Source: Lingula anatina (lineage: Eukaryota; Animalia; Brachiopoda). Taken from it: a DNA stretch of 64,000 nucleotides. Where the stretch lies: NCBI GenBank assembly GCA_051362555.1, contig CM120641.1, positions 5,580,001 through 5,644,000 on the forward strand. Reading direction: 5' to 3'. Under the pieces are notes generated by a model. That model saw only the letters and a program-made list of their open reading frames with translations, did not search any database and was not told where the DNA came from. Position numbers and translations under genes: made by a program. Of the stretch, positions 20,329-51,142 are shown one piece after another. Positions within the stretch are counted from its first letter, which is position 1. Every line of letters starts with the position of its first letter.

Positions 20329-23300
20329 TTAAATGATAGTACAAGCTTGACTTCCTTTGGAAAACTGGCTAACTGCAGCCACTTCTTTACGCAGTTTCTC
20401 AAAGTCTTTGGCAGCCTTGGCGTTCCTGTACATGTTTAGGGTGTTCCTGGGCTCTGTGATCTCTGCATCACCATTAGGAAGTGTATCACCTTGGGCAGAG
20501 GTATGGACATCTGGAGGATTGTTTCCGATCTGGGAGATGTTCGCTGGTTCTTCCGTCTCAGCTGCAGGATGGGATACATCATTAGGTACAGGGCTTGGTA
20601 CATGATTGGGTACAGGATCCCGTTGAGTTGGCTCTGCCACAGACAGTGGCTGATGCTGGGAGTTGTGACCAACAACTGAGGTTCCACTCTGGCTTATTTG
20701 GGTCTTGCTTCTTGGAGCATTTGTTTTATCTGAAATAGTGAATTGAATGTGATGAGTCAAGTGGACAAGCTGTGTTTCTGTGCAGAATGGTAAGAACAAA
20801 TATAAAAGACAAATAAATGAACGAAAGGCACGTTGAAAGCAGGGTAAAAAGTACTGATACATTGTTACAGAGCAGTTGGGAAAGAAGAAAAATCCACTTT
20901 TTTTTTCCCAGTCAACAGTTCTGAATCTATATTTAAAGATTGATGTCGATGCCAAACCATCTTAAGAATTAACTTACTTTTGATGGTTATGCACAGAAAA
21001 AAATCTGTGAAAAATAATTTCACTTACCTGGTTTTAAGCCTGCTTCTTCACTACTAGTTTTCAGCATGTGTTGGGTGGAGAGCAGCTTGAGGTAATGAAG
21101 CAAGGAGTGGGGGGTCTGCAGTGGGAAGTCAGACGTGTCGTAATGGAGAACACTCACACGGGGCAGTTCCTGGTGCTCTGGGCACAGCCATACTATCTTT
21201 CCACTGGCCAGCTGACATCTGTAATAGAGAAAAAAAAACAAGTTGACGGTATTTATTTAAAGTGAGTAATTCCTGCACTTCATCTAATTCCATACTAATG
21301 GCAAAATATGCAGCAGAAGTAGTTATCCAATTGTCATAAAAATAAACAATGTGTTCCTAAACCATTCATTCATAATCTAATACTATTTCCCAAATAATGC
21401 ACTTAATAAATTGTAAAATTAATATTTCAGATGACATACAGAGATATATTCCAGTTAGCATTATATAATTATTTTATTCATTCAAAAATATGCTCACATC
21501 CTCTTGTGGGAGAATGATGGGAGAGGAGCTGGAGAGAACCCATTTAATTATGACAGAAACAATAATGGCACTTACAAGCCACATTTTCCTACTCTTTCAA
21601 CCACTGCACAGTAATAATAATGTTGACAAAAACTGTAGTGGCCATACCTTCTTAGTCCTCCAGCAGTTTTGTCCAAATCGCTGTTGATAAGGAATTGTCT
21701 CAAGTATGTATACACTGGCTTCATACTCTCCACGTCCACAACTCCAGCATTCTACAAATGATATAGGACATGAAATAATTTGTTGTTAATACTCCCAGCT
21801 AGTGTATTTACCCCTTTGTATTCTTTTATCTTTTTTGAGGCATTGTACTGCTTATCTACAAGTATTTAAATCTTGAATTTAAAGTCAATAAATCTTATTA
21901 ATTTAATCCCCTTTACTTGTACAAATCTTTACTACAAGTGTCTCAAATTGAAACAAAAAAAGAAAATTAACAGATTTTGTATAAATGTTTAAAAGTTTGG
22001 TATGGTGATTGGTTGCCCTTCTTGTGTTAGTCTCAAACATCAATCATACTCTAACTAACAGTTATATTTAGGATTCTTCTATATCCTCAACATTGCCAGA
22101 GTACAAACAAATTAGGCATCATAATTGACCACAAAATGGCCTGATACAACTCTTTGTAGTTGAATTTTAAGTTATTTCTTGAGGTGTTTGAAATAACACC
22201 AAAAAATAAAATATCTTTATGCTTCTAGACCTTTAAAAACTTGCCCCTATGCTTCTTACCTTTTCCAGCATGTCCAACAGGTGTTCTCCTTGGACACCAT
22301 GGAAACAATTCAGGTCAATACTGCTGTGTTTTATCACTGTCATAATCCTGGCCAAGTAAGGCGAGGTCAGTGGGAAGAACATGTCTAGGTATTCTCCCAC
22401 TAATGGAATTGCCACTGGTTTTCCTTCACAGTGCCAGCCGCCCTCGTATTCACACAGGAGCCGCAGGCAGTACTGGACTTTATCTGAAGTAGGTTTCAAC
22501 ACCTCTTTAGGAGACTCATCAGTGCCAGCCACCTCTGTGTCAGACTCTGGTCGGTTCTAGAGTTTAGAGAAAATGGATGGATATATGGATGTAATTAGAC
22601 AAATTATTTTTTATGAAAAAAAAAATTGCCACAAACACTTAGCTGCTACCTTACTTATAGTAAATGATAAAATCAAACTTAAGTATGTATTTACCCACAA
22701 AGAAATTTTAAAATATTCTGTTTGTGTTTTTAGAGATCTACCATTGTGCACACTGGAAACAAGAGGAGGCGTGTTAGTCTGTTTTATTAAAATACTTGCA
22801 TTCAGCAAAGGTCCCTGTGGAGTTAGTGCACATTAGCTGGGTAAACAAAATTCATTGTGAATGGTCCCTTAAATGCATGGTCATTCTACAGATACCCATC
22901 CTCACCTGCCCTTCACTTTGGTTGTCACATAAGTCAATGAGGAACAGCCTTGGGTATGCATCATCCACATAACCAGAGATCTGCCTCAGTATCTTCCTCT
23001 GGGCCAGCTCATACAATTCCTGGAAGGCAGAGCTTGGGTTGGCGGAAGTTTTGGATGAAGTAGGTACGTGGCTCACTGCTTCCTCTGCCTTCGTTGCCTG
23101 GATCTGTTCTCTAACGGCAGACAACAACTGATCATGTGATGTCTCGCTGGGTGCCTGGAAGTTGAACTTGTGATATCCCAGGGACAGCATGCCAACCTTA
23201 AATGAGAGATGATGAGAATAGATATTGCAACAGATGTTGTTTAGATTTTTTTGTTTTCTGATCCTATCATATGGTGATATTTCTGTCAAACCTGCTGATT

Positions 23301-50300: not shown

Positions 50301-51142
50301 AAGCCTTGGCCAGAAAGAACACTCCCACGTCTGTAAGATGGATGCATCCATTGAAGTGCACAGCCTTGACTCCTTTCCTGAGGGTGTTCAACTCCTCGTC
50401 CATAACACAGAACACCAGGTCCGTTAATTGCTCTATGCCACTGAAGTCAAATGTTAGCTGGGCAGCTTGGGATAATGAAGAAGAAAGCTTTTTCAACAAT
50501 GCCTGTAAGAAAAACATACAAAAATAAAGCAGCATTTTAAATTGCAAGGCCAGTTTTTAAAAGTTGTTTTCTATTTCTGGTATTAAAAACTTTTACCTTG
50601 GAACATGGGGCACCACATTTTTGGCTAATTAAATCACTAATCAGCAGGATAGCATTCAGAATTCTATGGAGGAAGAAACCTAAAATTCAATCTATCATTT
50701 TATAATCTTAAATATGACCCAATTGAATGGGGTGGAGGTGGGCGCTTATACTGTATATATTATCTGCAGTGAATCCTGTAAAATCATATGTCAGATCCTA
50801 TTTTATTCTATTTGCACCTTGCAAACATAAATCTAAGATGTTTATTCACTTCTTTGATTGCAACAGAAAAACATCTTAAGCCACTTGCAAAATGTCAGCA
50901 ACCTATTACACTGTAGGAATCCAAATACAGTACAATGTACATGTACTTACAGCAAATTTCTTCAGTGGATAATATTCTTTGACCTCCAGATTTTCATACA
51001 AAGCTTTCCAGCTAAGCAAGACTTGGTCACCATCTTGAGTGTATCCACTTTCTGTGTATGTTGTCTGCTCAACTGCTCCCTCTTCACCTCCATTTGCAGG
51101 TATATGTACCTCTGTGTTAGCTTCTTCTTGCCTTTCCTCCAT
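20329..51142 (-). CDS. Giant Roco-family protein: LRR - pseudoROC (dynein MTBD insert) - COR - Cys-rich - unknown - LRR(EF) - ROC - COR - TIR - TIR - CaaX; ~47 coding exons, ~3,050 aa by manual splicing
   Basis: ATG 51142 (MEERQEEANTE), TAA 20329-20331 after SQACTII. GT-AG exons join with consistent phases throughout. Intact ROC motifs: KLMFVGLGGAGKTS (27273-27330), TDGIDI, VWDFAGQTLYYNTHQFFLS, VFIVGTHAD (26705-27023). COR motifs: GFLHDLG..VVINPQW, YLPAGLFNRVQVR. LRRs at 27761-29499; two TIR domains in exon 23490-24833. Confidence 0.88.
29660..29881. mobile_element. PIF/Harbinger-type MITE (~222 bp) in a Roco intron
   Basis: Imperfect TIRs GAGCGCATTCCCAGAGATTTAGATCGATC / GATCGATCTAAAATCTGTGGGAATGGGGTC, flanked by TAA at 29657-29659 and 29882-29884. 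Confidence 0.75.
31235..34642 (-). mobile_element. HINE copy 2 (~3.4 kb), near-identical inverted copy of 14575-18997, inside a Roco intron
   Basis: Reverse complement matches copy 1 end to end, including the nested small HINE (~31789-32026) and the (AT)n tract. It has fewer 161-bp units (~4, ~33950-34568) and one fewer 337-bp unit. Its 3' end lies ~25 bp from the acceptor of exon 31039-31209. Confidence 0.9.
37562..37764 (-). other. Roco exon encoding a Cys-rich putative Zn-binding cluster
   Basis: Translates NYQPFLPYHDWCESYDPPHSCCWCDHCLSKGGQCPQNHIGSTWRCNCAAIGWKCANCGICRRCVAKLW, in phase with both flanking exons. Confidence 0.8.
39842..40455 (+). mobile_element. Non-autonomous long-TIR DNA transposon (614 bp) with a RecQ-helicase fragment; AcademH-like
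   Basis: Perfect ~77-bp TIRs (CACCCTGAGCTTCAGAGC...AACCTCTGAC) and a GTGATTAT duplication on both sides. Interior 40133-40248 translates WSISELKPEQYDALHHYLLRDDVFCVLPTGYGKSLIF (RecQ motif 0 and Walker A). Confidence 0.88.
42287..42386. repeat. Interrupted (TG)n microsatellite
   Basis: Directly visible. Confidence 0.95.
43349..43463. repeat. (GA)n microsatellite next to the acceptor of exon 43214-43318
   Basis: Directly visible; reads as a (CT)n polypyrimidine tract on the coding strand. Confidence 0.97.
44850..45900. promoter_or_regulatory. Candidate CpG-rich internal promoter with alternative first coding exon (45048-45083, minus)
   Basis: Many CpGs against a CpG-poor gene body. YY1-like CAAAATGGCG (~44852), CRE-like TGACGTC (~45344) and AACGTCA (~45418). 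Minus-strand ATG 45083 gives MKFSSGWDTACI followed by a consensus GTAAGT donor (45042-45047) in phase 0. Confidence 0.5.
49769..49918. mobile_element. Possible small decayed MITE
   Basis: Terminal inverted matches AGACATGCTGCAAACT / AGTTTCAGCATGTCT; no clean TSD found. Confidence 0.4.

What the first reader, a model, noticed from the sequence alone, without database searches (positions are those of the whole stretch)
20329..51142. Two LRR-ROC-COR units (dead and active) in one ~3,050-aa polypeptide
Seen: exon phases stay consistent from ATG 51142 to the stop at 20329. A first COR (ALSRLDRMGKVVF..VVTDIQWF, LSYRFTNGYSGSLLGRII..IWSAGVL, ITIPC; ~38204-41938) parallels the second (GFLHDLG..VINPQWI, IIYQFDYLPAGLFNRV..MWKTGSI, YLLPC). 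Established: Roco proteins dimerise through COR. Inference: this is a single-chain pseudo-heterodimer in which a sensor half (pseudo-ROC with MTBD) regulates an effector half (GTPase with TIRs), like a fused sensor/helper receptor pair.
Basis: partly seen in the sequence, partly recalled or inferred. Interest (0 to 1): 0.75.

Follow-up and report, generated by a model that had tools for sequence, protein, structure and literature searches.

The report
Hidden dead GTPase twin in Roco-TIR
This invertebrate gene encodes one 3,040-residue relative of the Parkinson's protein LRRK2 with two GTPase-switch units, the first lacking its GTP-binding motifs and carrying a dynein-like insert; the dead unit likely controls the intact one, which is predicted to switch on an immune-type NAD-cleaving TIR enzyme.

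Summary
The locus is one minus-strand gene of 46 GT-AG exons and 3,040 aa, 99% identical to the RefSeq Lingula anatina protein LOC106176900. RNA reads support 9 of the 11 introns examined in the linker, including 34921/31209.

The first unit is a real but degenerate ROC-COR, invisible to Pfam: it matches LRRK2 ROC by profile (E 4e-7) and LRRK1/LRRK2/CtRoco by fold, and carries a dynein microtubule-binding domain.

The tandem layout is a family trait: 102 of 109 long homologues, from Trichoplax to amphioxus, have the first COR. Walker A is intact in 1 of 79 first ROCs and 128 of 132 second ROCs. TIR2 keeps the catalytic Glu (128 of 131); TIR1 does not. The dead half evolves fast (15% against 56% identity) and takes up foreign domains (three SPRY repeats, the dynein domain).

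The intramolecular COR-COR pairing and the sensor role remain untested inference. Single-unit TIR-Rocos are in print; nine literature searches found no account of the second ROC-COR. The scan had not noted it on other DNA.

The parts
20329..51142 (-). Whole gene: 46 exons, about 9.1-kb CDS, 3,040 aa
   Evidence: 99% identical to RefSeq LOC106176900
49495..51142 (-). Exons 1-3: acidic N-terminus and first LRR block (F-box/LRR-like by eye; aa 52-194)
   Evidence: own profile finds it in 79 of 109 N-terminal halves; the class label is my reading
46925..48958 (-). Exons 4-8: pseudo-ROC, without Walker A, G3 or G4, with a helical hairpin insert
   Evidence: profile hits LRRK2 ROC at E 3.6e-7; AF2 model and Foldseek; hhalign to ROC2 68%, E 5e-5
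42530..44361 (-). Exons 9-13: dynein-stalk microtubule-binding domain inserted between pseudo-ROC and COR1 (aa 450-568)
   Evidence: Pfam PF12777 E 2.5e-8; Foldseek to DNAH7 MTBD 6rza_X, target TM 0.71, 27% identity
38204..41938 (-). Exons 14-19: first COR (A and B lobes); not detected by Pfam
   Evidence: hhalign 97.7%, E 2.3e-12; Foldseek 3dpt/3dpu
37562..37764 (-). Exon 20: Cys-rich module, putatively metal-binding
   Evidence: found in 55 of 109; both flanking joints seen in RNA
29943..37414 (-). Exons 21-31: linker; weak SPRY-like (64%) and very weak MBT-like (25%) stretches
   Evidence: neither is significant in the hmmsearch
31210..34920 (-). Longest intron (3.7 kb), filled with dispersed and 161-bp tandem repeats; spliced out
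   Evidence: loose-end reads join 34921 to 31209
27321..29499 (-). Exons 32-36: second LRR block (typical type) with an EF-hand-like insert
   Evidence: Pfam LRR hits; the EF-hand shows only as weak hits in homologues
26400..27320 (-). Intact ROC GTPase (G1, G3, G4 present); boundaries approximate
   Evidence: Pfam Roc E 2e-22; motifs; joint 27761/27438 in RNA
24381..26370 (-). Second COR (COR-A and COR-B); boundaries approximate
   Evidence: Pfam E 1e-31 and 3e-30
23490..24300 (-). TIR1 (Leu at the catalytic position) and TIR2 (Glu kept); boundaries approximate
   Evidence: Pfam TIR_2, two stretches; survey
20329..23196 (-). Exons 42-46: conserved C-terminal domain and low-complexity tail
   Evidence: homologues align to about model residue 2770 of 2941

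Best explanation
It is one protein of a widespread invertebrate family in which a degenerate LRR-ROC-COR unit precedes an intact LRR-ROC-COR-TIR-TIR unit; the dead unit likely acts as a built-in sensor and brake on the intact GTPase switch, whose second TIR is predicted to cleave NAD+. Shown: single gene, both folds, loss of the GTP motifs in unit 1, their retention in unit 2, the catalytic Glu in TIR2 only, fast evolution and domain uptake in unit 1. Inferred: unit 1 folds back and its COR-B takes the place of the usual dimer partner of COR2 (about 0.4), holding unit 2 in the dimer-like, GDP or empty state. Binding or damage at LRR1 or at the inserted domain (here the dynein MTBD, so microtubules or something that attacks dynein) would loosen the pair, let GTP load, and let TIR2 domains cluster and make cADPR or deplete NAD+.
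For: Single gene. Unit 1 fold. Walker A in 1 of 79 first ROCs against 128 of 132 second ROCs; G3 130 and G4 108 of 132. COR1 retained in 102 of 109 long homologues from ten phyla by their source names, so the dead unit is kept by selection; distances of unit 1 and unit 2 correlate (Spearman 0.63, 65 proteins), as expected for an old, stable fusion. Median identity 15% in unit 1 against 56% in unit 2. Three SPRY-like repeats sit inside the pseudo-ROC of one clade (P0074, P0076), an MTBD sits at the ROC/COR joint of 6 proteins, and PLAT, C2, MBT and SH3 domains occur in the linker of others. COR-B is the best-conserved part of unit 1, by a small margin (0.30 against 0.22-0.25). Glu in TIR2 in 128 of 131, in TIR1 in 1 of 131. 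Literature: CtRoco dimerises through the C-terminal half of COR, is dimeric when empty or GDP-bound and monomeric with GTP (PMC6337361 passages, PMC5714945 abstract); non-TLR animal TIRs with this Glu make cADPR, and a figure legend lists Roc and COR among their architectures (10.64898/2026.04.20.719644, section 8).
Against: COR2-B is far more conserved than COR1-B (0.67 against 0.30), which fits a self-pairing COR2 at least as well as a partnership with a fast-changing COR1. About 1,000 residues separate the two CORs. The COR-B conservation in unit 1 may be fold core only. No expression, infection or biochemical data link the gene to immunity; it is expressed at low level. A Glu does not guarantee TIR activity (the same preprint names inactive cases). 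Microtubule binding by the insert is untested.
Confidence: 0.5

Rival explanations
1. The dead unit is a scaffold or locator. It tethers the protein (here to microtubules or cilia through the MTBD) or dimerises it through COR1-COR1, while unit 2 cycles through ordinary COR2-COR2 homodimers. There is no intramolecular pseudo-dimer.
For: Strong conservation of COR2-B against weak conservation of COR1-B; the MTBD passes the Pfam cut-off and matches the dynein fold; the long multi-domain linker.
Against: A mere tether would not need a whole ROC-COR fold kept from Trichoplax to amphioxus (102 of 109); the MTBD is present in only 6 of 109.
Confidence: 0.33
2. The protein is a non-immune signalling or trafficking regulator like LRRK or Tornado1. 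Unit 1 diverges because constraint is relaxed, not because of an arms race.
For: The paralogue clades on the tree look old and follow species groups; low expression in the seven runs laid; no immune data for this gene.
Against: TIR2 keeps its catalytic Glu in 128 of 131; SPRY and LRR domains are typical recognition modules (established knowledge); neighbouring gene numbers suggest local clusters in Dimorphilus and Pecten (names).
Confidence: 0.14
3. Two adjacent genes that the reader and RefSeq joined by mistake.
For: No single read spans both units; 2 of 11 linker introns and the four between 31039 and 29499 were not seen in RNA; four AATAAA hexamers lie in the long intron; some database entries hold unit 1 alone (P0149-P0152, P0157).
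Against: 9 of 11 linker introns, including the long one, are supported by RNA, with no pile-up of read ends; 102 of 109 long homologues from independent annotations are fused; the unit-1-only entries stop at scattered places in COR1, the linker or LRR2, and in Glandiceps the two halves carry neighbouring gene numbers (LOC144444212 and LOC144444214), which looks like broken models.
Confidence: 0.03

Closest known systems
Roco GTPases (CtRoco, LRRK1/2, MFHAS1)
   Same: LRR-ROC-COR order; unit 2 has intact G motifs; both units match these structures.
   Different: Two units in one chain, the first dead; TIR pair instead of a kinase; dynein insert.
Trichoplax TRIADDRAFT_57945 (Civiero et al. 2014, PMC4104024, passages read)
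   Same: It is a member of this family (P0115). The review noted a Ras-like domain N-terminal of ROC and proposed two GTP-binding domains in one protein.
   Different: The review called it a separate Ras-like output domain. Here it is the ROC of a complete first LRR-ROC-COR unit, and it is the only one of 79 with Walker A intact.
Invertebrate LRR-Roc-COR-TIR proteins: Aplysia LOC101848126 (PMC9334734) and sea-anemone Novel Gene 1 (PMC5094078); passages read
   Same: The Aplysia protein is P0047 here. NG1 has FBXL-like LRRs, a GTPase, COR and TIR_2.
   Different: Both are described as single ROC-COR proteins. P0047 has the hidden COR1. NG1 was not tested; no cnidarian protein was among the named hits.
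Paired sensor/helper NLRs with integrated decoys, such as RRS1/RPS4 (recalled, from no call)
   Same: A catalytically relaxed, fast-evolving half that takes up host-like domains, beside a conserved TIR signalling half.
   Different: Roco GTPase rather than STAND ATPase; one chain; no ligand or immune function shown.

Membership tests
Roco GTPase (unit 2) | ROC directly followed by COR | tested here: met
   Pfam Roc 1849-1967, COR-A 2022-2159, COR-B 2177-2316
Roco GTPase (unit 2) | G1, G3, G4 motifs intact | tested here: met
Roco GTPase (unit 2) | GTP binding and hydrolysis | not testable with these tools
   needs an assay
ROC-COR fold (unit 1) | Small-GTPase fold followed by COR-A and COR-B | tested here: met
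   AF2 pLDDT 78.9, pTM 0.72; top Foldseek hits LRRK1 4e-9, LRRK2 1e-8, CtRoco 3e-8
Active Roco GTPase (unit 1) | Walker A, G3, G4 | tested here: not met
   absent in this protein; Walker A in 1 of 79. Unit 1 is a pseudo-GTPase by sequence.
Roco COR-mediated dimer, in cis | COR-B to COR-B contact between unit 1 and unit 2 | tested here: inconclusive
   only conservation profiles, which fit both pairing and non-pairing
Dynein stalk MTBD | Sequence and fold match | tested here: met
   PF12777 above cut-off; Foldseek 6rza, 6l4p, 8i3j
Dynein stalk MTBD | Binds microtubules | not testable with these tools
   needs co-sedimentation
Catalytic TIR NADases | Glu in helix C (TIR2) | tested here: met
   128 of 131 by pairwise alignment to P0080; position read from the motif, not from a structure
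Catalytic TIR NADases | Glu in helix C (TIR1) | tested here: not met
   1 of 131
LRRK kinases (database label 'serine/threonine protein kinase') | Kinase domain after COR | tested here: not met
   no kinase hit in P0080
Paired NLR receptors | NB-ARC or NACHT ATPase | tested here: not met
   none; analogy only
Paired NLR receptors | Ligand-triggered immune output | not testable with these tools
   no functional data

The most novel reading that the evidence does not exclude
An ancient, unrecognised class of single-chain paired immune receptors in animals: a pseudo-Roco sensor with swappable integrated decoys (dynein MTBD, triple SPRY) clamps an active Roco-TIR NADase through an intramolecular COR-COR pseudo-dimer. 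It would be a natural, covalently fixed asymmetric version of the LRRK2-type dimer.
Probability: 0.3. Interest if true: 0.85.

Novelty: new variant of a known kind. Interest (0 to 1): 0.64.

Why it matters
Whether COR dimerisation switches Roco proteins on or off is a long-standing question for LRRK2 (PMC6337361). A family that has kept a dead ROC-COR in cis since the placozoan-bilaterian split offers a natural asymmetric test case with a simple read-out, TIR NADase activity. It also shows that standard annotation misses the ROC-COR of the first unit in about a hundred database proteins, and it points to integrated-decoy logic in animal receptors that are not NLRs.

Tried and rejected
Complex prediction of COR1 (588-968) with ROC2-COR2 (1845-2335): no verdict, score 0.00 in two runs; the tool did not use the alignment and folded no controls. 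It is not counted either way.
No whole genome is held for this window. The run search listed no indexed RNA holder, only same-species raw runs.
My first model had an extra exon at 46683-46585; RefSeq and five MTBD-bearing homologues align without it, so I dropped it. An open frame at 44139-43945 does not fit the phase and has no Pfam hit.
An MBT domain across the 34921/31209 junction looked plausible by eye but was not confirmed.
The search for shorter, split homologues with the full-length alignment returned 7 unrelated LRR or Roco proteins and is uninformative. Alignment A2 was misaligned and discarded.
Pfam on single exons of unit 1 found nothing significant; a PDB search with one MTBD exon found nothing. 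The ESM Atlas gave no hit for a homologue's linker. The VIA second look was busy twice. The LRR1 column printed is invalid (missing file) and was ignored.
Duplication against fusion: the unit-1 profile scores the family's own unit 2 at a median of 43 bits (max 75) and ten stand-alone Rocos at 56-95, but those were picked by that profile, so this is inconclusive.
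Full report
Observation. The window is AT-rich, intron-containing animal DNA. I built the minus-strand gene by hand from splice sites and corrected it against the closest database protein. The result is 46 exons, all 45 introns GT-AG, one frame from ATG 51142 to the stop at 20329, 3,040 aa. It is 99% identical to XP_013414940.1, Lingula anatina LOC106176900, which RefSeq also models as one 3,044-aa protein.

One transcript. RNA reads from runs with the same species label are few (depth 1-7 on exons), lie on the expected strand and avoid introns. 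In the linker, one search examined 11 introns: 7 are listed joints, 39448/39056 appears in 2 reads, and the long intron is bridged by 4 reads of one run whose loose ends equal the start of the 31209 exon. Two were not seen (36551/36298 and 36149/35854; exon 24 had depth in only 2 of 4 runs and could be skipped in frame). The four introns between 31039 and 29499 were not among the joints listed. No pile-up of read ends was reported.

The first unit is a degenerate ROC-COR. Pfam sees only one Roc and one COR in P0080. Four tests show the hidden unit. (a) Profile-profile comparison of COR1 with COR2: 97.7%, E 2.3e-12. (b) A unit-2 profile hits 29 of 109 N-terminal halves at E<0.05, against 1 of 109 reversed controls. 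(c) A 23-sequence unit-1 profile finds LRRK2 ROC (E 3.6e-7), the archaeal Roco 4wnr and LRRK1 as its best PDB sequences. (d) An AlphaFold2 model of P0080 201-966 (pLDDT 78.9, pTM 0.72) returns LRRK1, LRRK2 and CtRoco first, then dynein microtubule-binding domains. Whole-query TM-scores are modest (0.33-0.39), as expected with the insert. ROC1 against ROC2 by profile alone is weaker (68%, E 5e-5).

Family. Searches gave 140 homologues; 132 had a full unit-2 ROC-COR and 109 of these had more than 900 residues before it (the other 23 are too short to test). Of the 109, 102 carry COR1, 79 LRR1, 53 a ROC1 detectable from the Lingula seed, 55 the Cys-rich module and 6 the MTBD (profiles iterated on the same set). 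By source names they span brachiopods, molluscs, annelids, nemerteans, a flatworm, rotifers, the nematode Plectus, a hemichordate, amphioxus and Trichoplax. Seven lack COR1 (P0014, P0015, P0026, P0124, P0133, P0138, P0140). No cnidarian, arthropod, echinoderm or vertebrate member was among the named hits, but the word-based search is limited. Entries with unit 1 alone exist but end at scattered points and look like broken models.

Dead and live halves. Walker A is intact in 1 of 79 first ROCs (Trichoplax, whose G3 already looks altered) and 128 of 132 second ROCs. Median pairwise identity is 15% for unit 1 and 56% for unit 2 in 65 proteins. TIR2 keeps the catalytic Glu in 128 of 131, TIR1 in 1 of 131. 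The dead half takes up foreign domains: three SPRY-like repeats inside the pseudo-ROC in one clade, and the dynein MTBD between pseudo-ROC and COR1 in five members of the Lingula clade (FastTree support 0.99) and in one Mytilus protein of another clade whose sisters lack it. That is either a second insertion at the same site or repeated loss; I did not test which. The two units differ in LRR type (my reading) and ROC1 has a helical hairpin that ROC2 lacks, so fusion of two Roco genes is plausible, but the score test was inconclusive.

Mechanism. CtRoco dimerises through the C-terminal half of COR and becomes monomeric with GTP (PMC6337361, passages; PMC5714945, abstract). LRRK2 M1732R disrupts COR-B dimerisation (PMC10805800, passages). 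Animal TIRs with the Glu can make cADPR (10.64898/2026.04.20.719644, passages and section 8; figures and supplements not seen). From this I infer that unit 1 is a tethered, nucleotide-blind partner that restrains unit 2 until something binds LRR1 or the inserted domain, after which GTP loading frees TIR2 to cluster. Against this, COR2-B is much more conserved than COR1-B (0.67 against 0.30), which suits a COR2 homodimer, and nothing here shows a contact, a ligand or an immune role. I put a regulatory role for unit 1 at about 0.5 and the direct COR-COR pairing at about 0.4.

What is known. Civiero et al. 2014 (PMC4104024, passages) noted a Ras-like domain before ROC in TRIADDRAFT_57945, a member of this family, but not a second COR. 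Aplysia and sea-anemone immunome papers (PMC9334734, PMC5094078, passages) list LRR-Roc-COR-TIR proteins as single units. PMC11378527 and PMC8195603 (passages) add nothing on tandem units. Nine searches found no description of a duplicated or pseudo ROC-COR. Subscription papers, such as the surveys of bivalve TIR proteins and Lingula immunity by Gerdol and colleagues (recalled, not seen), were not searchable and may mention it. The scan's own notes hold no look-alike.

Verdict. The feature is real and conserved, and it appears undescribed as a tandem dead/live Roco. It is a new variant of a known kind; interest 0.64. The paired-receptor reading has probability about 0.3 and would merit 0.85.

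Noticed in passing
P0196 (unnamed Logan protein, 1,285 aa): Two complete ROC-COR units in direct tandem, both with Walker A intact: an independent double Roco with two live GTPases. Organism unknown; could be an assembly or model artefact.
   Followed up: partly
P0074, P0076 and relatives (molluscs): About 550 residues of three SPRY-like repeats are inserted inside the pseudo-ROC.
   Followed up: partly
P0043 (Mytilus galloprovincialis) 467-579: Dynein MTBD at the same site as in Lingula, but in a different clade whose scallop sisters lack it.
   Followed up: partly
P0236 (Branchiostoma belcheri, 3,062 aa): LRR-ROC-COR with two COR-A stretches and a C-terminal conflict-system GT4 glycosyltransferase.
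   Followed up: no
P0073 (Adineta vaga) 3030-3111: Family member ending in an anti-lipopolysaccharide-factor domain; may be a fused gene model.
   Followed up: no
window 668-8743 (-): Exons of IFT140 (Pfam beta-propeller hits).
   Followed up: partly
window 11384-13662 (+): Short-chain reductase gene (adh_short_C2); it resembles peroxisomal 2,4-dienoyl-CoA reductase (recalled).
   Followed up: partly
window 39837-40460: Intronic element with 97-nt inverted arms, MITE-like; repeat-derived RNA reads lie over it on both strands.
   Followed up: partly
window 33941-34568; similar translations at 14690-15528 and 5819-6514: 161-bp tandem repeat family, heavily covered by RNA reads, most likely from other copies.
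   Followed up: no
window 60856-61770 (-): 305-aa open frame with no convincing Pfam hit.
   Followed up: partly
window 43945-44139 and 46565-46747 (-): Two coding-looking open frames inside introns of unit 1 that belong to neither the RefSeq model nor the homologues.
   Followed up: partly
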